DNA of 64,000 nucleotides from Dehalococcoidia bacterium (GTDB taxonomy: Bacteria; Chloroflexota; Dehalococcoidia; Lucifugimonadales; UBA3495): assembly GCA_963667415.1 (NCBI GenBank), contig OY763410.1:656657-720656 (forward strand). The letters run 5' to 3'. The notes under the pieces were generated by a model. That model searched no databases, had not been told where the DNA came from, and saw nothing but the letters and a program-made list of their open reading frames with translations. The position numbers were made by a program, and so were the translations under genes. Shown piece after piece: positions 1,085 to 58,678 of the stretch; positions within the stretch are counted from its first letter, which is position 1, and each line of letters opens with the position of its first letter.

Positions 1085-1162
1085 TGGTACCCCGGAGGGG
1101 CTTCGATCCCCTGATCTCCACCTTGAAAGGGTGGCATCCTGACCTGGCTAGACGACCGGGGC
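1085..1162 (-). tRNA. tRNA-Glu (anticodon UUC), CCA encoded
   Basis: The reverse complement reads GCCCCGG TC GTCT AGCCAGGTCA GGAT G CCACC CTTTCAA GGTGG AGATC AGGGG ATCGAAG CCCCT CCGGGGT A CCA. This folds by hand into a cloverleaf with a 7-nt anticodon loop whose anticodon is TTC. The overall sequence is close to bacterial tRNA-Glu. Confidence 0.9.
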
Positions 1163-29439: not shown

Positions 29440-30741
29440 TTGGTAGCGGGCGCACCGCCTTCCTCGGCTACTCCCTCCCTGTGGAGCCGGATAACCGGGC
29501 CGTGGCAGGTTCCCTCCTTCCGCTGGTACTGGGCCGGTTCGCTGGCCCAGTCGATGTCCCAGGGCATGCAGTTCCTGGTGCTGGGATGGCTTGTGCTGGA
29601 TGTCACGGACGACAAGACACAGCTGGGCCTGACGATATCACTGTACGGCCTGCCCAACATCGCCTTCCTGATGGCTGGCGGCATCATCGCCGACCGGATG
29701 GACCGCAAGCTGCTTCTGATGGTCACGCAGGCGATGGTGGGAACGCTGATAGCCGTCCTGGCCGTGCTCACCATCACCGACAACGTGGCCCTCTGGCACA
29801 TCTATCTCTCGGCGGCCCTGCTGGGCGTGCTGCAGGCGTTGAACATGCCCGCCCGCCTGGCGATGCTCGCGGACCTCGTGGGCGAGCGCAGGCTGCTGGA
29901 CGCCGTGGCCCAGTTCAATATGGCGCAGCACGCCGGGAGGATTGTGGGGCCTCCGGTGGCCGGGGTTCTCATCGACCTGTGGGGCATGGGCGTTGTGCTG
30001 GTCCTGAACGCCGCCTGCTATGGGGCCAGCGTTCTCCTGGTGTCCATGGTGCGCGGGGCGTACAGTCGGCCCGAGGCCGGTCGCCAGCCGCTGCTGAGCC
30101 ACATAGGAGAGGGGCTGGCGATCATCCGCGATACCCCGATGATGTTGACGGTGCTCGTCATGACCTGCGTCTTCGGCGGGTTCGGGATGGCGCACCTCCA
30201 GGTGATACCCGCCTTCGCCAAGGAGCAGCTCGACAGCGGCGCATCCGAGGTCGGGCTGTTGCTGCTCGGCTCGGGAATCGGAGCACTCATCGGCAGCATG
30301 ACCCTGACGCTGATGCACCGGGCCTGGCTGTACCGCTGGCTGCTCTTCTGCCTGGTTACCTTTTCCGGACTGCTGACGCTGTTTGCCTGGAGCGGCTCCC
30401 TCGACGACCTGACCGGTTCGGCCTGGAATGGCTGGTTCTGGGTGACATGGGTGTTCGTTTTGCTGGTGGGGATTGTGGCCATTGGCTGGGTATGGCCCCT
30501 GACAACCACGATAATGCAGCTATCGTCTCCCCCGGAGCTGCGCGGCAGGGTGATGGGAGTGATCCACCTCGTACCCGGCCTGCACTTCCTTGGGGCCTGG
30601 CCCCTGACGCTGGCCGCCGCCGGAATAGGCTGGCCGCTGGCGATAACTGGAGCCGCAGGGGCCACTCTGCTCGTCGCGCTAACCTTCGGACTCGCTCGGA
30701 AGACAGGCCGTGAACTGGCTTCCCACCCGGCTTCCACTTGA
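29440..30741 (+). CDS. MFS transporter (MFS_3 / enterobactin-exporter-like), copy 1
   Basis: 433 codons with about 12 TM segments and the motifs FRWYWAGS and IADRMDRKLLL. There is no ATG near the N-terminus, so the start is uncertain (TTG 29440). Confidence 0.85.
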   Translation: MVAGAPPSSATPSLWSRITGPWQVPSFRWYWAGSLAQSMSQGMQFLVLGWLVLDVTDDKTQLGLTISLYGLPNIAFLMAGGIIADRMDRKLLLMVTQAMVGTLIAVLAVLTITDNVALWHIYLSAALLGVLQALNMPARLAMLADLVGERRLLDAVAQFNMAQHAGRIVGPPVAGVLIDLWGMGVVLVLNAACYGASVLLVSMVRGAYSRPEAGRQPLLSHIGEGLAIIRDTPMMLTVLVMTCVFGGFGMAHLQVIPAFAKEQLDSGASEVGLLLLGSGIGALIGSMTLTLMHRAWLYRWLLFCLVTFSGLLTLFAWSGSLDDLTGSAWNGWFWVTWVFVLLVGIVAIGWVWPLTTTIMQLSSPPELRGRVMGVIHLVPGLHFLGAWPLTLAAAGIGWPLAITGAAGATLLVALTFGLARKTGRELASHPAST

Positions 30742-30859: not shown

Positions 30860-32161
30860 TTGGTAGCACAGTCATCCGCAACCCTGGGTAATCCGTCCTA
30901 CTGGAGCCGGATGCGGGGACCATGGCGGGTCGGCGGCTTCCGCTGGTACTGGCTGGCGTCCTTCACCCAGTCGGTGGGCCAGGGAATGCAGTTCCTCGTC
31001 CTAGGATGGCTGGTGCTGGAACTTACCGGCTCCTCCATCCAGCAACTCGGCCTTGTGGTGTTCCTTTACGGCATACCGAACACCCTGATGTTGCCTTTCG
31101 GCGGCATGATTGCCGACCGGATGAACCGCAAGCTGCTTCTCATCTTCACCCAGGCCGGCGTTGGTGTGCTCATCGGCATTACGGCGCTGCTTTCCCTTTC
31201 CGATGTCATTGCCCTTTGGCACATATACGTGGCCGTCGCCGTGCTGGGCGTGCTGCAGGCCCTGAACCAGCCGGCGCGGGTGACCATGCTCTCTGACCTG
31301 GTCGGGCATGGCGCGCTTCTCGACGCGGTGGCGCAGTTCAACGCCGCGGTACATATTGGACGCATCGTGGGCCCTCCCCTGGTCGGAATCCTCATCGACG
31401 GCGTCCCCTACATAGCCGACCGGTTCGACATCTGGGGCATCGGCACCGGGCTCTTGGCCAACGCGGCCTTCTATGGGGCCAGCGTGCTCTTCGTCCTCCC
31501 CATTCGCTGGACCTCCAGTGCCGCCGCCCCGGCTCGTGAGCCGCTGGTGCAGAACTTCATCAACGGCCTGTCGGTCATCAAGAACACCCCGGTGCTGCTG
31601 ACCGTCATCGTGCTGACCTGCTCCTTCGGCGGCTTCGGGATGTCTCACCTCCAAGTGATACCCGCCTTCGCCAAGGACCAGCTTGGGTCGGACGCCACCC
31701 GCGCCGGCCTGATGCTGCTGGCATCGGGCATCGGGTCCCTTATCGGCAACATCGCCCTGACTTTCATGAACCGCGCCTGGCTCTACCGTTGGCTGCTGGT
31801 GTGCCTCGTGACCATGGCGGTCATGCTGACCGCCTTCGGCTGGTCCACGTCCTTCTGGGTGGCCTGGGCGCTGTTCCTCGTGGTGGGAATCGTCAGCCTG
31901 GGCACCGTCTGGCCTCTGTCCACCACCATCCTGCAGCTCGCGTGCCCTGCTGAGGTTCGCGGCCGCGTGATGGGCATACTTCACTTCACCCCCGGATTCC
32001 ACTACCTGTTCGCGCTGCCGCTTTCCTTCGTTGCGGCTTCCGCCGGATGGCCGCTGGCGATAACCGGGGCCGCTGGGCTGATGCTCCTGATGACCATCTG
32101 GTTCGGCGTGGGCCGGAGCGCGGGCCGCGAGCTCGCCGCCCGCCCCGCTGCCGTGACGTGA
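30860..32161 (+). CDS. MFS transporter (MFS_3 type), copy 2 (tandem paralog)
   Basis: 433 codons, collinear with copy 1 over its full length (about 60% identity by eye). The alternative start ATG 30911 is preceded by GGAG. Confidence 0.85.
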   Translation: MVAQSSATLGNPSYWSRMRGPWRVGGFRWYWLASFTQSVGQGMQFLVLGWLVLELTGSSIQQLGLVVFLYGIPNTLMLPFGGMIADRMNRKLLLIFTQAGVGVLIGITALLSLSDVIALWHIYVAVAVLGVLQALNQPARVTMLSDLVGHGALLDAVAQFNAAVHIGRIVGPPLVGILIDGVPYIADRFDIWGIGTGLLANAAFYGASVLFVLPIRWTSSAAAPAREPLVQNFINGLSVIKNTPVLLTVIVLTCSFGGFGMSHLQVIPAFAKDQLGSDATRAGLMLLASGIGSLIGNIALTFMNRAWLYRWLLVCLVTMAVMLTAFGWSTSFWVAWALFLVVGIVSLGTVWPLSTTILQLACPAEVRGRVMGILHFTPGFHYLFALPLSFVAASAGWPLAITGAAGLMLLMTIWFGVGRSAGRELAARPAAVT

Positions 32162-32281: not shown

Positions 32282-33445
32282 ATGAAAGACACTATTGAGG
32301 TATTCTGGTTTTCCGAACAGCCCTACGCCCATGTCAGCGATTCTGACCTGGAGCAGTACGACTCCGGCAGGCTGGGCTTTCCCAACACCTTCTTCGACCC
32401 GGAGAAGGCCCACGTTCTCTATAACCAGTACCATGAGCAGTACCAGCTGGCCGACGAGGTCGGCTTCGACGGCATCATGTCCAACGAGCACCACGCTTCC
32501 TACTGGTGCATGAAGCCCGCCGTCAACCTGGACGCCGCAGTCATCTCCAAGCTGACTAAGAACACGAAAATCGCCATCCTCGGCAACGTCATAGCCGTCA
32601 ACGACCCCATCCGCATGGCCGAGGAAATCGCCATGCTCGACTGCTTCTCCAACGGTCGCATCATCTCCGGCTTCGTGCGCGGCACCGCCGTCGAGAGCCT
32701 GGCCGGCGGCATCATCCCCGCTGAGAACCGCGCCCGCTTCGAAGAGGCCCACGACCTCATCATCAAGTGCTGGACCGAGCCGGGCCCCTTCCGCTACGAG
32801 GGCCAGTACTACCACTACCGGGCCGTCAACCCGTGGGTGCTGCCGGTGCAGGACCCGCACCCGCCCATCTGGTTCCCCGGCCTCTCCAGCGCGGAGAGCG
32901 TCGTTTGGGCCGCCAGCCACCAGCACCCCTATATGAACCTGGGTTCCCTCCTCGACTACACCGAGGGACTGAAGGGCGTGTACATCGACACCGCCAAGGA
33001 AGTCGGGTTCACGCCGGGGCCGGAGCACTTCGGCTACCTGCTCCGCGTGTTCTGCGCCGACACCGATGAGAAGGCCCAGCGCATCGGCGAGACCTTCCTC
33101 TGGACCGAGAACCATCGCAACCGGGGCCCCGTCGAGCACAACGACCCGCCCGGCTACCAGTCCCGCGAGGCGGTGCGCATCCAGCGACAGCTCCCGGGCG
33201 CAGGTGGCTTCGGGCGCCGCATGACCTACCAGGAACTGCAGGATGTCGACAACGTCATCGTCGGCAGCCCCGACACCGTGACCCGAAAGCTGAGCAACAT
33301 CATCGAGCGTCTGAACCCGGGATACCTGCACATCTACGGCAACGAGGGCGACATGGACCACCCCGACGTGCTGCGCTCCATCGAGCTGTTGGGCCGCGAG
33401 GTCATCCCGGCCCTGCACGAAATCCAGCTACAGCCCTACGAGTAG
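32282..33445 (+). CDS. luciferase-like (LLM class) flavin-dependent oxidoreductase
   Basis: 387 aa with an LLM-type TIM-barrel pattern (FDGIMSNEHH...ILGNVIAVNDPIRMAEEIAMLD..SNGRIISGF). SD AGGAG lies upstream. Confidence 0.85.
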   Translation: MKDTIEVFWFSEQPYAHVSDSDLEQYDSGRLGFPNTFFDPEKAHVLYNQYHEQYQLADEVGFDGIMSNEHHASYWCMKPAVNLDAAVISKLTKNTKIAILGNVIAVNDPIRMAEEIAMLDCFSNGRIISGFVRGTAVESLAGGIIPAENRARFEEAHDLIIKCWTEPGPFRYEGQYYHYRAVNPWVLPVQDPHPPIWFPGLSSAESVVWAASHQHPYMNLGSLLDYTEGLKGVYIDTAKEVGFTPGPEHFGYLLRVFCADTDEKAQRIGETFLWTENHRNRGPVEHNDPPGYQSREAVRIQRQLPGAGGFGRRMTYQELQDVDNVIVGSPDTVTRKLSNIIERLNPGYLHIYGNEGDMDHPDVLRSIELLGREVIPALHEIQLQPYE

Positions 33446-33819: not shown

Positions 33820-34983
33820 ATGATTACCAAGTTCGACAGCTTGTTCGCCGGCCACGTGGATATGACCAACATCGGCTACGGCGGCACCGCGGTCAACGAC
33901 CGCGTCTTTGACAACGACCACCTGTCCTCCGTCTTCCCCAAGTCCGAGGCCATCGCGAAGACCATGGACGAAAACGGCTACGACACCATGTGGATGGCGG
34001 AGCACCACTTCCAGCCCGAGGGCTACGAGTGCATACCCAACCTCATCATGCTCAACGTCCACCTCGCCCACCTGACCAAGGACCTCAAGTTCGGTTGCGG
34101 CTTCAACATCGCCCCGATGTGGCATCCACTGCGTTTGGCCGAGGACTTCGCCACCGCCGACATCCTGACCGGCGGCCGCGTCATCTTCGGCGTGGGCCGC
34201 GGCTACCACACCCGCGAGATCGAAACCTTCGGCTCGCCGCTGCAGGACCAGGACGCCAACCGCGAGCTGTTCGAGGAGCAGGTCGATATCATCTTCAAGG
34301 CCTTCAACGAGGAGTCGTGGTCGCACCAGGGCAAGAACTACACCCTGCCGCCCGAGGTGCCCTACCGCGGCTATACCCTGAAGGAGCTGACCCTGGTCCC
34401 CCGTCCGACGAAGCTACCCGTAGAGTGTTGGCAGCCCATCCAGGGCGGCACGCAGCGCGCCCTGGACTTCATGGTCAAGCACAACATCAAGGGCATCATC
34501 GGCGGCGGCGTGGCCGAGGGCGGCGCGATGGACAGCGTCATCTACGGCTATCGCGACGCCATGATTCGCGCCGGACATGAGGAACCCGAGCCGGGCACCA
34601 ACATCAGCGTCGGCTTCCACTTCCATCTCGCACCGTCGGTGGAGCAGGCGATGGACGAGGCCCAGGGCTTCTTCGAGGAGAACCTGAAGATGTTCGGCCC
34701 GCTGCGCCTGTCCCGCCGACTCTCCGACGAGGAGATACGCGACATCGGCGACCCAAGCCGTGCGCCCACCGCCGGGCTGCCCACCATCCAGGGTGCGGTC
34801 GAGGGCGGTGCGTTCCTGGCCGGCCCGCCCGACCGCGTCATCGAGCAGCTCAAGGCCGTCGAGAAGCAGTATCCGGGCCTCGAGCGCGTCGGCGTCAGCC
34901 ACCCCGTGGGCACCCCCCAGAGCGTCATCACCGAGCAACTCGAGTGGTTCGCCAAGGAAGTCATGCCCGAGTTCAAGAAGTAG
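33820..34983 (+). CDS. luciferase-like (LLM class) flavin-dependent oxidoreductase
   Basis: 387 aa with YDTMWMAEHHF...PLRLAEDFATADILTGGRVIFGVGRGY, typical of LLM monooxygenases. SD GGAGAA lies upstream. Confidence 0.88.
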   Translation: MITKFDSLFAGHVDMTNIGYGGTAVNDRVFDNDHLSSVFPKSEAIAKTMDENGYDTMWMAEHHFQPEGYECIPNLIMLNVHLAHLTKDLKFGCGFNIAPMWHPLRLAEDFATADILTGGRVIFGVGRGYHTREIETFGSPLQDQDANRELFEEQVDIIFKAFNEESWSHQGKNYTLPPEVPYRGYTLKELTLVPRPTKLPVECWQPIQGGTQRALDFMVKHNIKGIIGGGVAEGGAMDSVIYGYRDAMIRAGHEEPEPGTNISVGFHFHLAPSVEQAMDEAQGFFEENLKMFGPLRLSRRLSDEEIRDIGDPSRAPTAGLPTIQGAVEGGAFLAGPPDRVIEQLKAVEKQYPGLERVGVSHPVGTPQSVITEQLEWFAKEVMPEFKK

Positions 34984-35112
34984 ACGGGATATGCCGAGCC
35001 GGGCGAGCATGGACCAAGTGCAACGCCTTGTAGGGTCGTTTGATCATTGAGCCTGTGATGGTATAGACTAACAGTGTTGAACCACCCCACTCGCTTCATA
35101 GCGACTGGGCGT

Positions 35113-35143
35113 CAACGGCCACCTCCTAAAGAGGTGGCCGTTG
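35113..35143 (+). terminator. 13-bp stem hairpin (CAACGGCCACCTC/GAGGTGGCCGTTG) after the LLM cassette
   Basis: Perfect inverted repeat with a 5-nt loop, followed by CATTTGT. It lies 130 nt after the stop at 34983 and 17 nt before the NYN gene ATG. Confidence 0.5.
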
Positions 35144-35160
35144 CATTTGTAGGTCCATTG

Positions 35161-35805
35161 ATGAAGACCAACGTTTATATCGACGGCTTCAATCTGTACT
35201 TCGGGGCCCTCAAGGATACGCCCTTCAAGTGGCTTAATCTCTCCGCAATGTGTCAAATGCTTCTACCGGGTCGGAGCATCGGTAAAATCAGGTACTTCAC
35301 CGCACGGGTTATCCCGATGCAAAACGATAGGCAGGCCCCCAACAGGCAAGACACTTACTTGCGAGCACTGGAAACCCTACCGGAATTGACTGCTCACTTT
35401 GGCAGGTTTTCATCTCATCCAGCTTACGCCCCAGCCTATCCTCTCACTTTTTCGACCATAGATGGGAGTACCCGTACCGTCCGAATTCTCAAGACGGAAG
35501 AGAAGCGTACGGATGTGAACCTTGCAACTCTCTTGCTGATGGACTGTGTGGACGAAGCTTTTGAAGAGGCCGCGATTATTTCCAATGATTCTGACCTCCT
35601 GCTTCCGATTGAATATGCAATACATAAGTTCGGCAAGACAGTCGGAGTAATCAACCCTCATCGTCGGAACAAAGTGAGCCAGGAACTTGCCAAAGCCGCT
35701 AGCTGGACATATAGAGAAATCAACCGCAGCGTGCTCGCTGCCAGTCAGTTTCCCGACGTTGTTGAGCACCCCCGCGGCTCGATCACCAAGCCGTCTGCAT
35801 GGTGA
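35161..35805 (+). CDS. NYN-domain (LabA/DUF88-like) putative ribonuclease
   Basis: MKTNVYIDGFNLYFG...EEKRTDVNLA...IISNDSDLLLPI matches the NYN/PIN-like acidic-residue pattern. The gene lies in an AT-richer pocket. ATG 35161 was chosen. Confidence 0.75.
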   Translation: MKTNVYIDGFNLYFGALKDTPFKWLNLSAMCQMLLPGRSIGKIRYFTARVIPMQNDRQAPNRQDTYLRALETLPELTAHFGRFSSHPAYAPAYPLTFSTIDGSTRTVRILKTEEKRTDVNLATLLLMDCVDEAFEEAAIISNDSDLLLPIEYAIHKFGKTVGVINPHRRNKVSQELAKAASWTYREINRSVLAASQFPDVVEHPRGSITKPSAW

Positions 35806-35826: not shown

Positions 35827-35855
35827 TTGACACGCCCATAGGCCCGTCTTACACT
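35827..35855 (+). promoter_or_regulatory. candidate promoter TTGACA-N17-TACACT for the selenoprotein operon
   Basis: TTGACA at 35827..35832, an exact 17-nt spacer, TACACT at 35850..35855. It lies about 50 nt upstream of ATG 35907. Confidence 0.5.
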
Positions 35856-35906: not shown

Positions 35907-36941
35907 ATGCTGACAACCGAGCTTACCGACGCCATTGAGTTGATGTTCGAGACCGGCTGGACCGATGGCCTGCCCGTCGTGCCGCCGTCCGAGGAACTGG
36001 TCCGCCGCTTCGTGGCCCATACCGGGCGCGATGGCAACGAGCTCATCGCGGAGCTGCCCCCGCTGGAGGGCCGCGCCACCGTGGAGCGCATCGCCGTCAA
36101 CGCCGTCATGGCCGGTTGCATCCCCGAGCACATGCCCGTCGTCATCACCGCCCTGCAGGCCATGATGGACGAGCGATTCAACCTGCGCGGCGTAATGTGC
36201 TCCACTGGCATCCACACGCCGTTGCTCATCGTCAACGGCCCGGCGGTGCAGAAGCTGGACATCAATGGCGGCTACAACTGCTTCGGTGCAGGCTGGCGGG
36301 CCAACGCCACCATTGGCCGCGCCGTGAAGCTGGCGCTGGTCAACCTGGGCGGCGCAGTCCCTGGCGAGACCAACAAGGCAACCTTCGGCCACCCCGGCGC
36401 CTACACCTACTGCGTTGCAGAGGACGAGGCAGCCAACCCGTGGACGCCGATGCACGTCGAGATGGGCTACGCCGCCGCCGACAGCACCGTCACCGTGTTC
36501 CCCGCCGAGGCGCCACACAACGTCATGTACCACGCCTCCAACTCCCGCGACTTCCTGACCGTGTTGGCCGACACCATGTGCCCCCTGGGCAACGTCCAGA
36601 TGTACGTGATGGGCGACACCTTCGTTGCCATCGGACCGGAGCACACCAAGTTTCTCCACGCCGACGGCTGGAACAAGCGGGACATCCGGCAGTTCCTCTT
36701 CGAGCACGCCCGCAAGCCGGTTCGCATGATAAAGCACGGCGGCCCTCCCCAGGGCGACGCCCGCCGCGGCCACTTCTGGCCCAAATTCATCGACGCCGAG
36801 GACGACGACCAGATGGTCCCGGTGGTGCGTGCGCCCGACCGCATCCACATCTTCGTGGCGGGAGGCGCCGGTGGCCCCCACTCGGTCTACCTGCCCGGCT
36901 GGGGTTCCCGCGCCGTAACCCGCAAGATAGAAGGCATTTAG
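35907..36941 (+). CDS. conserved-looking protein of unknown function (344 aa), first gene of the selenoprotein operon
   Basis: Strong coding signal. The sequence includes MLTTELTDAIELMFETGWTDGLPVVPPSEELV...NAVMAGC...GVMCSTGIHTP. I cannot assign a family. The antisense 378-aa ORF is a GC shadow. Confidence 0.75.
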   Translation: MLTTELTDAIELMFETGWTDGLPVVPPSEELVRRFVAHTGRDGNELIAELPPLEGRATVERIAVNAVMAGCIPEHMPVVITALQAMMDERFNLRGVMCSTGIHTPLLIVNGPAVQKLDINGGYNCFGAGWRANATIGRAVKLALVNLGGAVPGETNKATFGHPGAYTYCVAEDEAANPWTPMHVEMGYAAADSTVTVFPAEAPHNVMYHASNSRDFLTVLADTMCPLGNVQMYVMGDTFVAIGPEHTKFLHADGWNKRDIRQFLFEHARKPVRMIKHGGPPQGDARRGHFWPKFIDAEDDDQMVPVVRAPDRIHIFVAGGAGGPHSVYLPGWGSRAVTRKIEGI

Positions 36942-36979
36942 GGGACATCCATTCCTGCAATAGCAATGGTGAGGAAACT

Positions 36980-37537
36980 ATGACTGCTACCAACGTCGAA
37001 GAACGCCTGAGACAGATGGGCCTGATGAGTCCCGTCGACCCTGACGCCGCCAATCGCTGGCGTCCCGCCCCTAGGCTCGACACCCTCCACGGCAAGGTGG
37101 GCGGTTTTCTGGGCAATCGGAAGGCCAACTCCGCGCTGCTGCTGCACAATGTTCGCGAGCTGCTGGACCGCGATATGGAGCTCGGCGACTCCATGGCCGT
37201 GGACAAGTACGTCTACTCCCGCCCGGCCGCCGACGATATCATTGACGACCTGGCCGTGCGCTGCGACTTCGTGGTGACTGCCATCGCGGATTGAGGGTCC
37301 TGCACCGCGTGCAGTGTGCACGACGCGATGACCCTCGAGAACCGCGGCGTCCCGACGGTGGTGCTGTGCACCGACCCGTTTCTGAACTCGGCCTTCCGCC
37401 ACGCCAACACCTTCGGCCGCCGCGACTTCCGGCCCCTCGGCTTCCCGCATCCGCTGGGTGGCCTGACCCCGGACCAGGTGTCCGTGCGTGCCGGCGAGCT
37501 GGAGCAAGCCGTGATTGATGTGCTGACGACGTATTAG
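36980..37537 (+). CDS. UGSC-motif selenoprotein (predicted Sec at codon 105 encoded by TGA 37292..37294)
   Basis: ATG 36980 is preceded by GGTGAGGAA. The tracked ORFs 36116..37294 and 37316..37537 are in the same frame (offset 1200 nt) and are separated only by TGA. Read-through gives ..DFVVTAIAD-U-GSCTACSVHDAMTLENRGVPTVVLCTDPF.. A SECIS-like hairpin directly follows the TGA. Confidence 0.75.
37295..37334 (+). promoter_or_regulatory. putative bacterial SECIS stem-loop
   Basis: By hand folding, the lower stem is GGGUC(37295-99)/GACCC(37330-34). The upper stem is CGCGUGCA(37306-13)/UGCACG-A-CG(37317-25). The apical loop is GUG (37314-16), which places G and U at +23/+24 from the UGA, as I recall for E. 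coli fdhF. Confidence 0.55.
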
Positions 37538-37618: not shown

Positions 37619-38512
37619 ATGGCAACCGTAGGCAGGGGCAAGTACACGTACGAGGTGGTCCCAGACTGGGAGAAGCTGCCCGAAGGCTGGGTGCTGGGCC
37701 AGACCGCCATCGTCACCGACTCACGGGACCGCGTCTACCTCTTCAACCGAGGCGATCACCCGCTGATCGTCCTCGACCGCGACGGCAACTTCCTCACCTC
37801 CTGGGGCGAGGGACAGCTTCCCGACGCCCACGGCATGTACATCGACGGCGAGGAGAACCTGTACATGCCCGTGAAGAACAGCCATGTCGTCCTGAAGTAC
37901 GACCCCAAGGGCAACCTGCTGATGACCATGGGCGAATGGGACGAGCCCTCCGACACTGGTTGGTCGGGCAACTACAGCGACACCGTCGAGCGCGCCGCCG
38001 GGCCCTTCAACCGGCCCAGCGACATCGCCATTCACCCCAGCGGCGACCTGTTCATCTCCGACGGATACGGCAACGCCCGCGTCCACCGTTTCACCAACAG
38101 CGGTCAACTCGTCGAGTCCTGGGGCAAGCCCGGCAAGACCGGACACGGAGAGTTCCACGTTCCCCACGGCGTTTGGGTGCATACCGATGGCCGCGTGTTT
38201 GTGGCCGACCGCGAGAACAACCGCATCCAGATATTCGATGACCGCGGCAACTTCCTCGAGCAGTGGCTGGGCCTCGCCCGCCCCTGCGACATCTACATCG
38301 ACGCCGACGAAGCTATCTTCGTACCCGAGCTTGACGGCTTCATGACCATCCTCGATATGGACGGCGACATCCTCGCCCGCTGGGGCAGCCCCGTCGAGGT
38401 GGAACACGGCCAGGGCGCCCACGCCGTCTGGGTAGATTCCCACGGCGACATCTACGTCAACCAGAACCTCGAGGGCCATCGGCTGGTCAAGTATCGCCAC
38501 GTAGGTGAGTAG
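37619..38512 (+). CDS. NHL-repeat six-bladed beta-propeller, peptidyl-alpha-hydroxyglycine alpha-amidating lyase (PAL)-like
   Basis: 297 aa with repeated blades such as FNRPSDIAIHPSGDLFISDGYGNARVHRF and HGVWVHTDGRVFVADRENNRIQIFD. SD ACAGGAGG lies upstream. Confidence 0.8.
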   Translation: MATVGRGKYTYEVVPDWEKLPEGWVLGQTAIVTDSRDRVYLFNRGDHPLIVLDRDGNFLTSWGEGQLPDAHGMYIDGEENLYMPVKNSHVVLKYDPKGNLLMTMGEWDEPSDTGWSGNYSDTVERAAGPFNRPSDIAIHPSGDLFISDGYGNARVHRFTNSGQLVESWGKPGKTGHGEFHVPHGVWVHTDGRVFVADRENNRIQIFDDRGNFLEQWLGLARPCDIYIDADEAIFVPELDGFMTILDMDGDILARWGSPVEVEHGQGAHAVWVDSHGDIYVNQNLEGHRLVKYRHVGE

Positions 38513-38585: not shown

Positions 38586-39599
38586 ATGCGCATAGCCTAC
38601 CAGGTTGGCCACGTCGTTCACCGCGATTCCATCGACCACCAACAGCAGTGGCAGAACCATCTGGCGCAGTTTCGCGCATCGCGGGACGCCGGGTTCGACA
38701 TCTATTGCTGGGGCCACCACTACCTCATCGACCCCTTCCAGCACTTCCAGCCGTGGCCGGTCCTGGCCCGGCTGGCGGCCGAACCGGGCGACATGACCCT
38801 GGCGACATCGATACTGCTGCTGCCGCTTCTGAACCCCGTCGATGTGGCGGAGCAGGCTGCCACCCTGGACCACATCGCCGAGGGCCGCTTCGTCCTCGGC
38901 ATCGGCCTCGGTTACCGTCCCGAGGAGTTCGAGGCCTTTGGCGTCAGCATGTCGGAGCGGGGAGCCCGTTGCACCGAGGCCATGCACCTCATGCGCCGGC
39001 TGTGGAGCGAGGACGAGGTAACTCATCACGGGAAATTCTTCAACGTCACCGGAGCGAAGCCGACCGCGCGGCCCTACCAGAAGCCATATCCCAAGGTCTG
39101 GCAGGCGGCTATGAGCGACCCGGCCATCCGGCGCGTGGCGCGCGAGGGCGAGATTCTGTACGTCGGCCCGGCCCAGTCCAACGAGTCCGTTCGCCACCAG
39201 ATAGACCTCTACCATCGCACCCTCGAAGAGTCCGGACACGATGACCCCGGGGAAATGGTCATCGTACGCGAGTTTTACTGTGCCCCCACCCGCGAGGAGG
39301 CCTTGACCAGAGCCCAGGCAAACTTCGCCACAAAGTACGAGGTCTATGCCCAGCATGGCCTGCACGGCACCGACGGCGAACTCACCCGCAAAGTGACCGG
39401 CGACATGGAGTCGCTCATGGACGACACCTTCCTGGTCGGCAGCCCCGAGGAATGTATCGAGCAGATTGCCGCCTACCACGAAATGGGCTTCACCGACGTC
39501 GCCATTCGCCTGTTCTATCCGGAAATGTCCCAGGGCGAGGTGCTGGAACATATCGATCTCGTAGGACAAGAGGTGATTCCCGCCCTGCACGCGCTCTGA
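38586..39599 (+). CDS. luciferase-like (LLM class) flavin/F420-dependent oxidoreductase
   Basis: 337 aa with LLLPLLNPVDVAEQAATLDHIAEGRFVLGIGLGYRPEEFEAFG, typical of LLM enzymes. Confidence 0.88.
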   Translation: MRIAYQVGHVVHRDSIDHQQQWQNHLAQFRASRDAGFDIYCWGHHYLIDPFQHFQPWPVLARLAAEPGDMTLATSILLLPLLNPVDVAEQAATLDHIAEGRFVLGIGLGYRPEEFEAFGVSMSERGARCTEAMHLMRRLWSEDEVTHHGKFFNVTGAKPTARPYQKPYPKVWQAAMSDPAIRRVAREGEILYVGPAQSNESVRHQIDLYHRTLEESGHDDPGEMVIVREFYCAPTREEALTRAQANFATKYEVYAQHGLHGTDGELTRKVTGDMESLMDDTFLVGSPEECIEQIAAYHEMGFTDVAIRLFYPEMSQGEVLEHIDLVGQEVIPALHAL

Positions 39600-39601
39600 G
39601 C

Positions 39602-39632
39602 AACCCGGGCTTTCTTCCCGGGTTTTCTTTGT
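39602..39632 (+). terminator. rho-independent terminator (AACCCGGG-CTTTCTT-CCCGGGTT + TTCTTTGT)
   Basis: Perfect 8-bp GC-rich stem with a 7-nt loop and a T-rich tail, starting 3 nt after the stop codon. Confidence 0.75.
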
Positions 39633-40382: not shown

Positions 40383-41567
40383 ATGACCACTCAGAGTTCC
40401 CTGCTCACGATCGGCGACTACGAAGCCCGCGCCAAGGAGACCATGCCCAAGGCTCTGTTCGACAGGCTCTTCGGGGACCTTGACGCTCACGACTGGACCA
40501 CCAACACCGCCAATGTGCGCGCCATGGAGGCTGTCAAGCTCCGTCCTCGGGTCCTGGTTGACGTCAGCGAAATTGACCTGTCAACCGAGGTGCTGGGCCA
40601 GCGCATCAGCATGCCGGTGATGCTTGCTCCCACTGGCACCCACCAGCGCGCCCACCCGGCCGGTGAGTTGGCCGCGGCCCGCGCCGCCGCCTCCGCCGAC
40701 ACCATCATGGGCCTGAGCACCGCCTCCAGCTACAGCATCGAGGAGGTGGCAGAGGTCGCCGACAATCCTCTCTGGTTTCAGCTCTACTTCTTCCAGGACC
40801 GCGAGTTGACCGAAATTCTGGTGCGCCGCGCCGAGAACGCCGGCTACACCGCCATGATGCTTACCGTCGACAACCTGGGCGCCAACTCGCGCGAGCGCGA
40901 ATTTCGCTACGCCTACATCCTGGACCAGGAGCGCATCCTCAAGAACTTCGACGGCATCGAGCTTCCGAACCTGCCCAACCAGGGCAACTTCTCCGAGAGC
41001 TTCGAGCACGCCCTCAACTGGCGCGACCTGGAATGGCTGCGTTCGCTGACTTCCATGCCGCTGGTGGTCAAGGGAATCCAGACCGCCGAGGATGCCCGCC
41101 TCTGTGTCGAGCACGGCGCCGAGGCGCTGGTGGTATCCAACCACGGCGGCCATGCCCTGCAGGGTACCGAGGGCTCCATCGACATGCTCCCATCCATCGC
41201 CGACACTGTGGGAGACCGCCTCGAGGTCTACCTCGACGGCGGCATACGCAAGGGAGCCGATGTGCTCAAGGCCCTGGCTCTTGGCGCAAAGGCTACTTTC
41301 GTCGGACGGCCCATCTTCTGGGGTCTTTCCGTCGGGGGAGAGGCGGGTCTCACTCACTGCCTCGAAATCCTGCGCAACGAACTCAGCGTCGCCATGGGCC
41401 TCTGCGGCGTCACCGATGCCCGGCAGGTCGACCGCTCCGTGGCCCAGGACCCGGCAGCGGGTGGCTCTTCCGTCGTGGGCGACCTCGAGCGCCTCGCCCG
41501 CCTACTCGACCAAGGCTACCTCACGAGTGAGGAGTTCGAGTCCCAGAAGTCCCGCCTCCTGGGTTAA
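40383..41567 (+). CDS. FMN-dependent alpha-hydroxy acid dehydrogenase/oxidase (LldD/glycolate oxidase family) with C-terminal SHOCT domain
   Basis: ATG 40383 follows CAGGAGAGGA. The TIM-barrel motifs are present (MLAPTGTHQRAHP, LWFQLYF, VVKGIQT, VSNHGGHAL, DGGIRKGADVLKALALGA). The tail is DLERLARLLDQGYLTSEEFESQKSRLLG. Confidence 0.88.
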   Translation: MTTQSSLLTIGDYEARAKETMPKALFDRLFGDLDAHDWTTNTANVRAMEAVKLRPRVLVDVSEIDLSTEVLGQRISMPVMLAPTGTHQRAHPAGELAAARAAASADTIMGLSTASSYSIEEVAEVADNPLWFQLYFFQDRELTEILVRRAENAGYTAMMLTVDNLGANSREREFRYAYILDQERILKNFDGIELPNLPNQGNFSESFEHALNWRDLEWLRSLTSMPLVVKGIQTAEDARLCVEHGAEALVVSNHGGHALQGTEGSIDMLPSIADTVGDRLEVYLDGGIRKGADVLKALALGAKATFVGRPIFWGLSVGGEAGLTHCLEILRNELSVAMGLCGVTDARQVDRSVAQDPAAGGSSVVGDLERLARLLDQGYLTSEEFESQKSRLLG

Positions 41568-42347: not shown

Positions 42348-43238
42348 ATGGAAATCGGAGTCATCTTTCCCCAGACTGAAATCGAGCCCGACGTCGCGGC
42401 TATACGCGACTTCGCTCAGGCCGCCCAGGAAATGGGCTACTCGTATTTCTTCGTCGCCGACCACGTGCTCGGGGCCGACGCCAGCGCCTACGACCACCCG
42501 CTTTTCGGCATGTACAACCACGAGTCGGTGGTGCACGAGTCGCTGACGACCATGGGCTACCTTGCCGCAGTCGTCCCCGGCATGGGCCTCATGACCGGCA
42601 TCCTCATCCTGCCCCAGAGGCAGACCGCCCTCGTCGCCAAGCAGGCCGCCGAGATCGACGTACTCTGCGGCGGCAAGCTGCGTCTCGGCATCGGCGTGGG
42701 CTGGAACTTCGTCGAGTACGAAGCCCTCGGAATGAACTTTCAGGACCGCGGCGCCCGCAGCGCGGAGCAGGTACAGCTCATGCGTGAGCTGTGGACCAAG
42801 GAGACGGTGGACTTCCACGGCAAGTGGCACGACATCACCCACGCCGGCATCAATCCCCTGCCCGTGCAGCGCCCCATACCCGTCTGGCTCGGCGTTGGCA
42901 GTCCGGCAGCACCCATTCCCCCCGACGTCGCCCTCCGCCGCGTCGCTCGCATCGCCGACGGCTGGTGCCCCAACTTCGGCCCTGACGAAGCCGGATACGC
43001 GATGCAGGAGAAGGTGCACGGCTACATGGCCGAATACGGCCGCGATCCGTCCGAGCTCGGACTCGACGGTCGCCTGAAAACCGCAGGCAACTCGCCCGAA
43101 GACTGGATTGAAGAGGTCGCCGGTTGGCGCACGATGGGCGCGTCTCACCTCTCCATCGAGAACCGCCGCGGAGGGCTGAAGACCGCTGACGACCATATCG
43201 ATATGATGCGCCGCTTCAGGGAAGCTGTGGAATTCTAG
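42348..43238 (+). CDS. LLM class F420-dependent oxidoreductase (Rv2161c-like subgroup)
   Basis: 296 aa with MEIGVIFPQTE...YSYFFVADHVLG...ILILPQRQTALVAKQAAEIDVLCGGKLRLGIGVGW. Confidence 0.85.
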   Translation: MEIGVIFPQTEIEPDVAAIRDFAQAAQEMGYSYFFVADHVLGADASAYDHPLFGMYNHESVVHESLTTMGYLAAVVPGMGLMTGILILPQRQTALVAKQAAEIDVLCGGKLRLGIGVGWNFVEYEALGMNFQDRGARSAEQVQLMRELWTKETVDFHGKWHDITHAGINPLPVQRPIPVWLGVGSPAAPIPPDVALRRVARIADGWCPNFGPDEAGYAMQEKVHGYMAEYGRDPSELGLDGRLKTAGNSPEDWIEEVAGWRTMGASHLSIENRRGGLKTADDHIDMMRRFREAVEF

Positions 43239-57253: not shown

Positions 57254-58678
57254 TTACCCGAACCGCACGTACTCGAAATCCCACTGCTTACCGTCGATGC
57301 CCCGCACCGGCGGTGCAATCCACCCCGCTATCCTCCCAGGCTCAATCACCCGGCGCATCAGCGAGTCCACGTACGCCATATCCTCCGCCGTCGGAAGCCA
57401 CCGCCCCTCGTTGGTCTGCCACTCCTCCTCGCTCACCACCCGCCCGTCTGGCGACACATGCACCCCCGCCGCGTTGCCGATGCGCCGGTTGAAGAACCGG
57501 TGCGGCAGTTCGAGGCGGAAGTCCACCCCCAGCGACTCCAGCGCCCGGTTCCACCGGTCCAGTCCTCGCTGGCAGTCCTTGATGTAGTCGTCCCTCAGCC
57601 GCTCGTTCACCGCCGCCAGCGCCGATATCTCCTCCACGCCGATGCTGCCGTCTCGCACCGTGTGAACCGGCCAAAGGCCCTCCGTCAGGCGGTGGTCGTC
57701 GTCAAGCCGCGACTCCAGGTAGCGTCCCTTCAGTCCGGCGGTGAAGTAGTTGGCCGCGTTGGTCGACACCTCCTGCCCGAACAGGTCCACCGACACGCTG
57801 TAGTGGAAGTTGATGTACTTCTGTATTGTGGGCAGGTCGATGACCCCGGCCGCCCGCAGCCGCTCCGAATCGTCCGTGCCCAGTTCGTTCATCACCTCGC
57901 CCGTCCGCTGCACCACCCGCATCACGCCCGTCTCCCCGACGAACATGTGGTGCGCTTCCTCCGTGAGCATGAACCGGCAGGTGCGCGACAGCGGGTCAAA
58001 ACCCGACTCCGCCAGCGCGGCCAGTTGGTACTTGCCGTCCCTGTCCGTGAAGAAGGTGAACATCAGGTACGACAGCCAGTTCGGCGTCGCCTCGTTGAAC
58101 GCACCCAGTATGCGCGGCCGGTCGGCGTCCCCCGAGTGCCGCTCCAGCATCGCCTCGGCTTCCTCGCGCCCGTCCCGCCCGAAGTAGGCGTGCAGCAGGT
58201 ACACCATTGCCCACAGGTGCCGCCCTTCCTCCACATTGATCTGGAACAGGTTGCGCAGGTCGTACAGCGACGGGCAGGTCAGCCCCAGCCGACGCTGCTG
58301 CTCCACCGACGCCGGCTCCGTGTCGCCCTGTGTCACGATCAGCCGTCGCAGCGGCGCACGGTACTCCCCCGGCACCTCCTGCCACACCGGATCGCCGAGG
58401 TGGTCCCCGAACGATATCGTGCGTTCTGCCTCGGGCTTGGCGAGAAATATGCCCCAGCGATACTCCGGCATCTTCACGAACCCGAAGTTGGCCCACCCGT
58501 CCGTCTCCACGCTGATGGCCGTGCGGAGGTACACATCGAAGTCCGTGGAGCCGTCCGGCCCCATCTCGTGCCACCACTTCATATAGTTCGGCTGCCACGA
58601 CTCCAGCGCCCGCTGCAGCCGCCGGTTGTCCGACAACCCTACATTGTTAGGTATCCTGTCCGTATAGTTGATGCTCAT
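57254..58678 (-). CDS. boxB: benzoyl-CoA 2,3-epoxidase (oxygenase) subunit B
   Basis: 474 aa. MSINYTDRIPNNVGLSDN..LQRALESWQPNY..WW..MGP and the diiron segment VEEGRHLWAMVYLL match BoxB as I recall it. Confidence 0.88.
   Translation of the reverse strand: MSINYTDRIPNNVGLSDNRRLQRALESWQPNYMKWWHEMGPDGSTDFDVYLRTAISVETDGWANFGFVKMPEYRWGIFLAKPEAERTISFGDHLGDPVWQEVPGEYRAPLRRLIVTQGDTEPASVEQQRRLGLTCPSLYDLRNLFQINVEEGRHLWAMVYLLHAYFGRDGREEAEAMLERHSGDADRPRILGAFNEATPNWLSYLMFTFFTDRDGKYQLAALAESGFDPLSRTCRFMLTEEAHHMFVGETGVMRVVQRTGEVMNELGTDDSERLRAAGVIDLPTIQKYINFHYSVSVDLFGQEVSTNAANYFTAGLKGRYLESRLDDDHRLTEGLWPVHTVRDGSIGVEEISALAAVNERLRDDYIKDCQRGLDRWNRALESLGVDFRLELPHRFFNRRIGNAAGVHVSPDGRVVSEEEWQTNEGRWLPTAEDMAYVDSLMRRVIEPGRIAGWIAPPVRGIDGKQWDFEYVRFG

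What the first reader, a model, noticed from the sequence alone, without database searches (positions are those of the whole stretch)
36980..37537. Hidden selenoprotein gene: a UGSC-motif ORF with an in-frame TGA (predicted Sec105)
The ORF track ends one ORF at TGA 37292..37294 (..DFVVTAIAD) and starts another at GTG 37316. The two are in the same frame (37316-36116 = 1200 nt), and the seven intervening codons (GGG TCC TGC ACC GCG TGC AGT) are open. Read-through from ATG 36980, which has a strong SD (GGTGAGGAA), gives a 185-codon product with ..AIAD-U-GSC-TAC.. This places the TGA in a UxxC redox-type motif. The downstream 73 codons have neighbour-like codon bias but no SD or start of their own. 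From memory, a UGSC-containing selenoprotein family was described in marine metagenome selenoproteome surveys; this needs verifying. Standard gene callers would truncate or split this gene.
Basis: partly seen in the sequence, partly recalled or inferred. Interest (0 to 1): 0.9.

Follow-up and report, generated by a model that had tools for sequence, protein, structure and literature searches.

The report
Mis-called UGSC-family selenoprotein gene

Summary
Observation confirmed; interpretation supported. ATG 36980 to TAG 37537 is one 185-codon gene with an in-frame TGA (37292-37294, codon 105) in the motif AIAD-U-GSC. The read-through product matches Pfam PF24696 "UGSC family" end to end (6e-44) and NCBIfam NF041046 "UGSC family (seleno)protein" at 121.5 bits (cut-off 125). 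TGA sits at this codon in 80/80 related Dehalococcoidia/SAR202 genomes and 62/67 distant metagenomic genes; the other 5 have TGC. In Cys-type homologs this column is an invariant Cys. The 80 codons after the TGA are under purifying selection (pN/pS 0.18). A hairpin CGUGCA-GUG-UGCACG follows the TGA, its loop at G23-U24 as in the E. coli fdhF SECIS. It is frozen at synonymous sites in 105 distinct Sec-type sequences and absent from Cys-type genes. The family has been known since 2005-2008, so this is a new, mis-annotated member of a known kind: all 120 best database homologs stop at ..AIAD. Extra findings: a conserved, sometimes fused partner gene (35907-36941) with no Pfam, NCBIfam or PDB match; a flavodoxin-like rather than thioredoxin fold; and remote similarity to Stickland-reductase selenoprotein B. 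Not tested: selA/selB/selD/tRNA-Sec in this genome.

The parts
36980..37537 (+). UGSC-family selenoprotein gene, 185 codons plus TAG stop; Sec at codon 105
   Evidence: Translation. Pfam PF24696 150.6 bits over residues 17-183. NCBIfam NF041046 121.5 bits. tblastn of 80 related genomes spans residues 1-185.
36968..36976 (+). Shine-Dalgarno-like GGTGAGGAA, ending 3 nt before ATG 36980
   Evidence: Read directly from the sequence. N-termini of close homologs (MT(T)ATNVEERL) agree with this start.
37292..37294 (+). In-frame TGA read as selenocysteine (Sec105) in the motif D-U-G-S-C
   Evidence: TGA in 80/80 related genomes and 62/67 distant genes, with 5 TGC. Aligns with an invariant Cys in Cys-type homologs. 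TGA is also an ordinary stop for 14 of 48 window genes, so the code is not reassigned.
37308..37322 (+). Core SECIS hairpin CGUGCA-GUG-UGCACG: 6-bp stem, apical loop G23 U24 G25 (37314-37316) counted from the U of UGA
   Evidence: MFE fold, z -2.5 to -3.1. Same hairpin and register in the folds of nearly all of the 46 distinct distant Sec-type sequences. Core pairs formed in 104-105 of 105 distinct sequences, loop always GUN. Same G23/U24 register as the E. coli fdhF SECIS. Absent from TGC-type genes.
37289..37324 (+). Footprint of suppressed synonymous variation: codon -1 and codons +2 to +10 around the TGA
   Evidence: Codon entropy is 0-0.44 bit here, against about 1 bit in flanking codons, across 79 distinct SAR202-clade genes. 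Ser +7 is AGT in 104/105 sequences although AGT is 4.6% of Ser codons in the window's genes.
37292..37337 (+). Extended predicted stem-loop: lower stem nt 1-8 with 39-46 enclosing the core hairpin; only partly conserved
   Evidence: MFE structure. Lower-stem pairs hold in 24-58 of 58 SAR202-type sequences and less often in other clades. Weak evidence.
35907..36941 (+). Partner gene 'up344' (344 aa), uncharacterised family; invariant Cys71 in AVMAGC
   Evidence: Immediately upstream in 79/80 related loci and in 55 of 57 assessable distant loci. 42% identical (E 5e-82) to the C-terminal domain of UGSC fusion protein P0247. No Pfam, NCBIfam or PDB match.
37619..38512 (+). NHL-repeat beta-propeller gene; a clade-specific neighbour
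   Evidence: Pfam NHL. Downstream in 80/80 SAR202-clade loci but in only 1 of 74 distant loci.
38586..39599 (+). Luciferase-like (LLM) flavin oxidoreductase gene; a clade-specific neighbour
   Evidence: Pfam Bac_luciferase 4.5e-62. Present in 76/80 SAR202-clade loci.
35827..35855 (+). Promoter-like site (TTGACA-17-TACACT) about 50 nt upstream of the partner gene
   Evidence: Consensus scan only: 1 site found against 0.8 expected by chance. Weak.
39602..39624 (+). Terminator-like hairpin right after the LLM gene; possible end of a partner-UGSC-NHL-LLM operon
   Evidence: Consensus scan only. Weak.

Best explanation
36980-37537 is a single gene for a 185-residue selenoprotein of the UGSC family.

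Recoding: during translation, UGA105 is read as selenocysteine. The mRNA forms a SECIS hairpin just downstream (stem CGUGCA/UGCACG, loop GUG, with G23-U24 at the same distance from the UGA as in E. coli fdhF). By the established bacterial mechanism, this hairpin recruits SelB-GTP-Sec-tRNA(Sec) to the ribosome.
- Shown here: the conserved TGA, the conserved hairpin, the selected downstream reading frame, and Cys at this position in Cys-type homologs.
- Inferred: SelB binding and actual Sec insertion.

Protein function: the protein is a small flavodoxin-like alpha/beta domain. The Sec sits at a strand-to-helix junction and is the family's one invariant catalytic residue. In this clade Cys108 can close a selenenylsulfide with it. 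The protein works with the product of the upstream gene (35907-36941), which is fused to UGSC in many other bacteria and has its own invariant Cys. Given the remote similarity to the Sec-bearing region of glycine/sarcosine/betaine/proline reductase selenoprotein B, the pair is most likely a two-component Sec-dependent reductase. A fusion of UGSC to a pyridine-nucleotide-disulphide oxidoreductase suggests it is recycled by a thiol or NAD(P)H system. The substrate is unknown. All of this protein-function paragraph is inference.
For: - Family membership: Pfam UGSC 6e-44 across both halves; NCBIfam 'UGSC family (seleno)protein' 2.8e-35.
- TGA conservation: 80/80 and 62/67. The frame stays open 76-84 codons after it in all 80 relatives.
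- Selection: pN/pS 0.18 downstream.
- Homologs: column 105 is an invariant Cys in 28 full-length Cys-type homologs.
- Hairpin: z-score -2.5 to -3.1. Near-zero synonymous variation in codons +2 to +10. Core pairs formed in 104-105 of 105 sequences and loop always GUN. fdhF SECIS register verified. Cys-type genes lack the hairpin.
- Genetic code: TGA is a normal stop elsewhere in the window.
- Literature: UGSC is an established selenoprotein family.
- Partner: synteny 79/80 and 55/57; fusion homology 5e-82; dozens of fusions.
- Fold: fusion model pLDDT 89, pTM 0.91, with flavodoxin-like matches.
- Selenoprotein B similarity: 13 of 29 members hit TIGR01917, best 2.6e-5, plus GrdF, GrdH and PrdB models.
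- Reductase fusion: UGSC plus Pyr_redox_2.
- Indirect: SelA/SelB COGs are reported in most sponge-symbiont bins, and several closest relatives are sponge-derived MAGs.
Against: - No tRNA-Sec, selA, selB or selD was found in the window, and the rest of the genome could not be searched.
- The hairpin stem is invariant, so there is no compensatory covariation. Its conservation is entangled with the conserved peptide C-S-V-H-D.
- No Rfam SECIS model matches.
- The NCBIfam score is 3.5 bits below the curated cut-off, with U replaced by C.
- Hits to selenoprotein B models are far below their cut-offs.
- The partner shows no similarity to the pyruvoyl proteins GrdE/PrdA.
- The structure was modelled on a fusion homolog (P0247), not on the window protein.
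- The second Cys of UxxC is missing in most fusions, so a simple U/C redox pair cannot be the family-wide mechanism.
Confidence: 0.9

Rival explanations
1. The TGA is a genuine stop. The locus encodes a 104-residue protein ending ..AIAD and, separately, a 73-residue protein started at GTG 37316, or nothing downstream.
For: This is how every gene caller has treated the relatives. Short fragments called from internal starts also exist in databases. TGA is a normal stop in 14 of 48 window genes.
Against: The Pfam model and 28 Cys-type homologs are continuous across the site. The seven codons between the TGA and the GTG are conserved as protein. There is no SD before GTG 37316. The downstream part is more conserved than the upstream part and its frame is maintained relative to the TGA in 80/80 genomes. 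The 5 TGC variants join the two halves.
Confidence: 0.02
2. Pseudogene or sequencing/assembly error: a TGC or TGT codon was mutated or misread as TGA.
For: A single-base change separates TGC/TGT from TGA, and Cys-type homologs exist.
Against: The same TGA is present in 80 independent genome assemblies and 62 metagenomic contigs. Purifying selection continues after it. A dedicated RNA hairpin accompanies TGA but not TGC.
Confidence: 0.01
3. The UGA is read through, but with an amino acid other than Sec (for example Cys or Trp), or with Sec delivered by a non-canonical route in a lineage without standard SelB.
For: The Sec machinery was not observed for this genome. No Rfam SECIS model matches. 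The hairpin lacks covariation support.
Against: The hairpin has the canonical bacterial SECIS position and a GU-containing loop in the same register as fdhF. The family is an accepted Sec family in many Sec-decoding bacteria. The aligned residue in homologs is Cys, the usual Sec counterpart. The window shows no other in-frame TGA of this kind.
Confidence: 0.05
4. Functional rival: the protein is a thioredoxin-fold thiol/selenol-disulfide oxidoreductase acting on its own through the UxxC pair, as the 2008 GOS paper suggested, with no dedicated partner.
For: The UxxC motif sits at the N-terminus of a helix, as in thioredoxin-like proteins. The literature calls it 'likely Trx-like fold'. A fusion to a TrxR-like flavoprotein exists.
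Against: The high-confidence model matches flavodoxin-like folds, and no thioredoxin appears among the top 50 hits. The second Cys is absent from most fusion proteins. The partner gene is adjacent or fused almost without exception. Weak hits go specifically to selenoprotein B models rather than Trx families.
Confidence: 0.15

Closest known systems
UGSC family (seleno)protein (NCBIfam NF041046; Pfam PF24696; 'UGSC-containing protein' of Zhang & Gladyshev, PMC2398784)
   Same: Same domain end to end, same length class (about 175-190 aa), same U-G-S-C motif at the family's invariant Cys/Sec column, and Sec forms far outnumber Cys forms. This gene is a member.
   Different: Nothing essential. It belongs to a Dehalococcoidia/SAR202-type clade whose members are all truncated in public annotation. 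Its SECIS stem is the short 6-bp version, whereas clades with a TCG codon at +5 have up to 10 bp.
E. coli fdhF SECIS element (the archetypal bacterial SECIS)
   Same: A hairpin immediately 3' of the UGA, with the apical loop carrying G23-U24 counted from the U of UGA, and a 3' arm U26 G27 C28 A29 C30 identical in sequence and register.
   Different: Triloop GUN instead of tetraloop GGUC. No bulged U17 (the bulge is recalled from memory). The stem is embedded in a conserved peptide motif. SelB binding was not tested.
Selenoprotein B of the glycine/sarcosine/betaine/D-proline reductases (GrdB, GrdF, GrdH, PrdB; TIGR01917/TIGR01918)
   Same: Recurrent weak profile matches covering the Sec region (window residues 91-161 against GrdB profile 333-397). 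Both have a UxxC-type Sec motif (the GOS table gives UxxC for PrdB; for GrdB it is recalled from memory) and both work with a second protein.
   Different: Scores are far below family cut-offs (16.9 against 602 bits). UGSC is a 185-aa stand-alone domain, not a ~430-aa protein. The partner is unrelated to the pyruvoyl proproteins GrdE/PrdA. The hosts appear to be free-living or symbiotic marine and soil bacteria rather than Stickland fermenters (inference). It is not a member.
Thioredoxin-fold UxxC/CxxU selenoproteins (Trx-like, Prx-like, SelW-like)
   Same: A redox-type U-x-x-C motif at the start of a helix; abundant in aquatic metagenomes.
   Different: The predicted fold is flavodoxin-like, not thioredoxin-like. 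The second Cys is not universally conserved. UGSC has an obligatory partner gene.

Membership tests
UGSC family (Pfam PF24696) | Score above the Pfam gathering threshold over the full-length domain | tested here: met
   150.6 bits against a cut-off of 25; residues 17-183 match profile positions 4-171 of 172.
UGSC family (seleno)protein (NCBIfam NF041046) | Score at or above the curated equivalog cut-off of 125 bits | tested here: inconclusive
   121.5 bits, E 2.8e-35, with U replaced by C. This is 3.5 bits short but is by far the best family. All 29 aligned members hit the model.
UGSC family | U/C-G-S-C motif at the invariant catalytic column | tested here: met
   D-U-G-S-C at 104-108. Columns 105 and 108 are invariant in alignment A1.
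Bacterial selenoprotein gene | In-frame UGA conserved among orthologs and aligned with Cys in homologs | tested here: met
   80/80 and 62/67 TGA, 5 TGC; Cys in 28 full-length homologs.
Bacterial selenoprotein gene | Coding sequence under selection downstream of the UGA | tested here: met
   pN/pS 0.18 over 60 codons after the TGA against 80 relatives. The C-terminal part has median 89% identity.
Bacterial selenoprotein gene | SECIS stem-loop directly downstream of the UGA with a G/U-containing apical loop at the canonical distance | tested here: met
   6-bp stem, loop G23 U24 N25, in the window and in 105 distinct sequences. The register equals that of fdhF. Support comes from conservation, not covariation.
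Bacterial selenoprotein gene | Genome encodes selA, selB, selD and tRNA-Sec | not testable with these tools
   None is in the 64-kb window and no tRNA-Sec is in the 60 related loci scanned. Indirect support: SelA/SelB are reported in most sponge-symbiont bins.
Bacterial selenoprotein gene | Sec actually inserted (75Se labelling or mass spectrometry) | not testable with these tools
   Requires an experiment.
Rfam bacterial SECIS families | Match to a curated SECIS covariance model | tested here: not met
   No SECIS family matched at gathering score or at E up to 10; only chance hits (mir-933, MIAT) appeared.
Selenoprotein B of Stickland reductases (GrdB/PrdB, TIGR01917/01918/04483) | Score above the family cut-off | tested here: not met
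   16.9 bits against 602.2, and 13.3 against 65.45. This is only a recurrent weak similarity, in 13 of 29 members.
Selenoprotein B of Stickland reductases | Pyruvoyl-proprotein partner (GrdE/PrdA) encoded alongside | tested here: not met
   The conserved partner up344 matches no Pfam or NCBIfam family in any of 35 members.
Thioredoxin-fold redox selenoproteins | Thioredoxin fold | tested here: not met
   The AlphaFold model of a fusion homolog (pLDDT 89) matches flavodoxin-like folds such as lumazine synthase, flavodoxin-like domains, PurE and GATase, and no thioredoxin appears among the top 50 hits. The model is of homolog P0247, not of the window protein.

The most novel reading that the evidence does not exclude
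UGSC and its invariably linked partner (a family of at least 7,895 proteins with no Pfam or NCBIfam model and no solved-structure match) form a previously unrecognised two-component selenocysteine-dependent reductase. It would be distantly derived from the Sec domain of the Stickland-reductase B proteins but would use a non-pyruvoyl partner. It is widespread in marine, sponge-associated and soil bacteria, and in SAR202-type Dehalococcoidia it is wired to an NHL propeller and a flavin monooxygenase for breakdown of some recalcitrant compound.
Probability: 0.3. Interest if true: 0.65.

Novelty: new member of a known kind. Interest (0 to 1): 0.35.

Why it matters
The gene itself is ordinary for the selenoprotein field: the UGSC family has been catalogued since the Sargasso Sea and GOS surveys and has Pfam and NCBIfam models. 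It matters in three practical ways.

- **Annotation.** In this collection, the whole Dehalococcoidia/SAR202-type clade has the gene truncated to about 104 residues labelled 'hypothetical protein'. Selenoproteome and selenium-use estimates for these abundant marine and sponge-associated bacteria are therefore too low.
- **SECIS detector.** The SECIS of this family is so stereotyped (NCG-UGC-AGU-NUG-CAC-GAC) that it can serve as a simple detector for the family.
- **Function.** UGSC is one of the most abundant aquatic selenoprotein families and still has no known function. Four observations turn 'uncharacterised redox protein' into a testable two-protein enzyme hypothesis: a near-obligatory partner gene that is often fused, a flavodoxin-like rather than thioredoxin fold, a Sec/Cys that is invariant while the second Cys is dispensable, and a remote link to GrdB/PrdB.

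Tried and rejected
- **Rfam.** Scans at gathering score over the whole window and at E up to 10 over 37200-37420 found no SECIS family, only chance hits.
- **tRNA-Sec.** ARAGORN found only tRNA-Glu in the window and no tRNA-Sec in 60 related loci.
- **Other split genes.** A scan for other TGA-split coding pairs in the window found none with a coding signature on both sides.
- **Sec machinery.** Pfam scans of 20 further window genes found no selA/selB/selD.
- **Solved structures.** PDB sequence searches with the UGSC profile and with the partner gave nothing significant. Foldseek of the partner model gave no convincing fold (best TM 0.30, class I fumarate hydratase).
- **GrdE/PrdA hypothesis.** The idea that the partner is a GrdE/PrdA-like pyruvoyl proprotein got no support.
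- **Metagenome scan.** The first attempt, with a 15-sequence alignment, failed for lack of a conserved stretch. A 5-sequence alignment worked.
- **Covariation.** The core SECIS stem never varies, so it gives no compensatory changes. I therefore rely on synonymous-site conservation and the Cys-type control.
- **P0023.** This 187-aa hit is a frameshifted call, not a full-length form.
- **'Unknown_1'.** Figure S1A of the GOS paper is held only as an image, so I could not confirm that 'Unknown_1' is the up344 family.
- **SAR202 literature.** The search for SAR202 plus selenocysteine found nothing specific beyond the sponge-bin COG observation.
Full report
**1. The observation**

An ORF in the frame of ATG 36980 ends at TGA 37292-37294 after ..DFVVTAIAD. 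A second ORF in the same frame starts at GTG 37316. The seven codons between them are open. GGTGAGGAA lies at 36968-36976, ending 3 nt before the ATG. Read-through gives 185 codons ending at TAG 37535-37537, with the TGA as codon 105 in AIAD-U-GSC-TAC. Among 196 same-frame ORF pairs in the window that are split by one TGA, this is the only one with the genome's coding GC signature (about 0.67/0.45/0.8 at codon positions 1/2/3) on both sides.

**2. One gene, of a known family**

With U written as C, the 185-aa product matches Pfam PF24696 'UGSC family' over residues 17-183 (profile 4-171 of 172; 150.6 bits, E 6e-44). It also matches NCBIfam NF041046 'UGSC family (seleno)protein' (121.5 bits, E 2.8e-35, curated cut-off 125). 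The match spans both sides of the TGA.

- It is listed in the 2016 comparative survey (26 organisms) and in the 2022 and 2026 reviews, the latter citing NF041046.
- It was also reported in Geodermatophilaceae, which encode Sec with UAG.
- The reviews say its function is uncharacterised.

**3. Comparative test of the TGA**

A scan of one genome per species returned 80 loci, all from Dehalococcoidia/Chloroflexota MAGs, including 'SAR202 cluster' and sponge-derived bins. They are 70-96% identical, and tblastn alignments span residues 1-185.
- Codon 105 is TGA in 80/80, followed by 76-84 open codons in every case.
- Against these relatives, pN/pS is 0.18 for the 60 codons after the TGA and 0.27 for the 60 before it.
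- The C-terminal part is more conserved (median 89% identity) than the N-terminal part (72%).

A search of 1.84 billion representative proteins with the 80 residues after the TGA found 263 relatives of two kinds. The first kind is 65-90-aa fragments that begin a few residues after the Sec site; these are Sec forms called from internal starts. The second kind is full-length 175-200-aa proteins that read D-C-G-S-C at the aligned position. In an alignment of the window protein with 28 of these, only four columns are invariant: P18, C105 (the Sec position), C108 and F134.

A metagenome scan seeded with distant Sec-type fragments gave 74 further loci, mostly soil and sediment contigs. Of these, 62 have TGA, 5 have TGC, and 7 could not be resolved.

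TGA is not reassigned in this genome: 14 of 48 window genes end in TGA.

**4. The SECIS element**

The RNA after the UGA folds into a hairpin with a 6-bp stem CGUGCA/UGCACG (window 37308-37313 and 37317-37322) and loop GUG (37314-37316). The z-score is -2.5 to -3.1 against dinucleotide shuffles.

Across 79 distinct SAR202-clade genes, codon -1 and codons +2 to +10 show essentially no synonymous variation (0-0.44 bit), while flanking codons carry about 1 bit. The same hairpin, with the same register, is predicted in nearly all of the 46 distinct distant Sec-type sequences folded.

Over 105 distinct sequences, codons +5 to +10 read NCG, TGC (103), AGT (104), NTG, CAC (105), GAC (97). AGT is only 4.6% of Ser codons in the window's genes. 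The six core pairs are formed in 104-105 of 105 sequences, and the loop is always GUN. The five TGC-type genes have a different sequence there and no equivalent hairpin.

Counting from the U of UGA, the loop occupies G23-U24-N25. I checked the E. coli fdhF SECIS that I recalled from memory. The 46-mer TGACACGGCCCATCGGTTGCAGGTCTGCACC... matches in 5,419 of 5,426 E. coli genomes (>=99% identity in 5,413 of 5,420 records), inside fdhF. Its loop GGUC is G22-C25, and its 3' arm U26-C30 has the same sequence and register as here.

Caveats:
- The stem never varies, so there is no compensatory covariation. The argument rests on synonymous-site freezing, the Cys-type control and positional equivalence.
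- No Rfam SECIS model matches.
- The lower stem predicted for the window (nt 1-8 with 39-46) is only partly conserved.

**5. What was not shown**

No tRNA-Sec or sel gene lies in the window, and no tRNA-Sec was found in the 60 related loci scanned. The only outside support is a report that SelA and SelB COGs co-occur in most sponge-symbiont bins of various phyla (PMC5649159), and several of the closest relatives are sponge MAGs. Sec insertion itself needs an experiment.

**6. Annotation status**

All 120 best hits in a 5.8-billion-protein collection cover only 54-56% of the query and are 104-128 aa (plus one frameshifted 187-aa call). The five inspected end at, or frameshift just before..AIAD. 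The few that carry names are called 'hypothetical protein'. The best hit scores 208 bits. A full-length close relative would score far higher, so none is present.

**7. Context and function (beyond the finding)**

*The partner gene.* The gene just upstream (35907-36941, 344 aa, 'up344') accompanies UGSC in 79/80 related loci. In the distant loci with enough upstream sequence to judge, it does so in 55 of 57, always on the same strand and 9-431 nt away. It is 42% identical (E 5e-82) to the C-terminal domain of P0247, a protein whose N-terminal domain is UGSC, and 36% identical to that of P0244. Dozens of such 520-580-aa fusions exist, and NCBI names one 'UGSC family (seleno)protein'. The GOS paper mentions a UGSC/'Unknown_1' fusion, which is probably this one, but its figure is an image so I could not check.

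The partner family has at least 7,895 members. It has no Pfam or NCBIfam match in any of 35 members and no PDB sequence match. Its AlphaFold model (pTM 0.84) has no convincing structural neighbour, the best TM-score being 0.30. It carries an invariant Cys (C71, AVMAGC).

*The active site.* In the fusion alignment, the Cys at the Sec position is invariant, but the motif is mostly C-G-T-S. The second Cys of 'UxxC' is therefore dispensable.

*The fold.* A fusion model (pLDDT 89, pTM 0.91) places that Cys at the end of a beta-strand and the start of a helix in an alpha/beta domain. The structural neighbours of this domain are flavodoxin-like folds (lumazine synthase, flavodoxin-like domains, PurE, glutamine amidotransferase), and no thioredoxin appears among the top 50 hits.

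*Remote relatives.* Of 29 diverse UGSC proteins, 13 weakly hit glycine reductase selenoprotein B (best E 2.6e-5). Others hit the GrdF, GrdH, PrdB and generic selenoprotein-B models, and almost nothing else turns up. In the window protein the matched stretch is residues 91-161 against GrdB profile positions 333-397, which includes Sec105. From memory, the GrdB Sec lies near position 350; I did not verify this residue by residue.

*Other fusions.* UGSC is also found fused to a pyridine-nucleotide-disulphide oxidoreductase, to NifU-like domains and to an SDR.

*Clade-specific neighbours.* The NHL propeller and LLM oxidoreductase genes downstream are conserved only within the SAR202-type clade. 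A promoter-like and a terminator-like site bracket the four genes, but these are consensus matches only.

**8. Most likely mechanism**

Shown: a conserved UGA, a conserved fdhF-like hairpin at the canonical distance, and a selected downstream frame.

Inferred from the established bacterial Sec pathway: SelB-GTP-Sec-tRNA(Sec) binds the hairpin and inserts Sec at codon 105.

Inferred from fold, conservation, synteny, fusions and the selenoprotein-B similarity: Sec105 is the nucleophile of a two-protein reductase formed with up344, recycled through Cys108 and/or a thiol or NAD(P)H system. The substrate is unknown.

**9. Verdict**

I put confidence that this is a UGSC-family selenoprotein gene at about 0.9, the main gap being the unobserved Sec machinery. 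It is a new, mis-annotated member of a known family, not a new kind of element, so overall interest is moderate to low (0.35). The more novel reading is that UGSC plus its unmodelled partner form an unrecognised Sec-dependent two-component reductase related to the Stickland B proteins. The evidence does not exclude this (probability about 0.3), and it would be of clear interest to the selenoprotein field (0.65).

Noticed in passing
window 32282-33445, 33820-34983, 38586-39599, 42348-43238 (all +): Four luciferase-like (LLM) flavin monooxygenase paralogs lie within 11 kb. Around them are two tandem MFS transporters (29440-30741, 30860-32161) and an FMN-dependent dehydrogenase with a SHOCT tail (40383-41567). 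This looks like the paralog-rich catabolic islands described for SAR202 (the SAR202 comparison is from memory).
   Followed up: partly
window 35074-35805 (+): A NYN-domain gene sits between the LLM gene and the partner gene. It is present in only 16 of 80 related loci, so it looks like a variable insertion into an otherwise conserved gene order.
   Followed up: partly
window 25156-28008 (-) and 57254-58678 (-): Two large ORFs with a clear coding signature (950 aa and 474 aa) have no Pfam match at E <= 1e-5.
   Followed up: no
L022 and L024 (both from OZ244112.1, at 100455-113009 and 4001152-4013706): One Dehalococcoidia chromosome carries two copies of the UGSC locus about 3.9 Mb apart, with identical 72-nt sequence around the TGA. 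This is either a duplication or an assembly artefact.
   Followed up: no
window 35907-36941 (+) and proteins P0271-P0390: The partner of UGSC belongs to a family of at least 7,895 proteins, all 'hypothetical', with no Pfam or NCBIfam model and no PDB fold match. It is a large family with no annotation at all.
   Followed up: yes
alignment A5 (fusion proteins P0247, P0391-P0480): In most UGSC-partner fusions the motif is C-G-T-S rather than C-G-S-C. The second Cys of the 'UxxC redox motif' is therefore not a family-wide requirement.
   Followed up: partly
proteins P0242, P0208, P0130, P0154: UGSC domains also occur fused to a pyridine-nucleotide-disulphide oxidoreductase, to NifU-like domains and to a short-chain dehydrogenase.
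   Followed up: partly
L119, L120 (metagenome contigs Ga0307374_10039162, Ga0307372_10004731): These Sec-type UGSC genes have 177 open codons after the TGA instead of about 80. Their sequence right after the TGA resembles P0130, so they may be Sec-type versions of the UGSC-NifU fusion.
   Followed up: no
window 35827-35855 (+) and 39602-39624 (+): A promoter-like site and a terminator-like hairpin bracket partner-UGSC-NHL-LLM, suggesting a four-gene operon. These are consensus matches only, at about the chance rate for promoters.
   Followed up: no
window 1085-1162 (-): tRNA-Glu (anticodon UUC), the only tRNA gene in the window.
   Followed up: no
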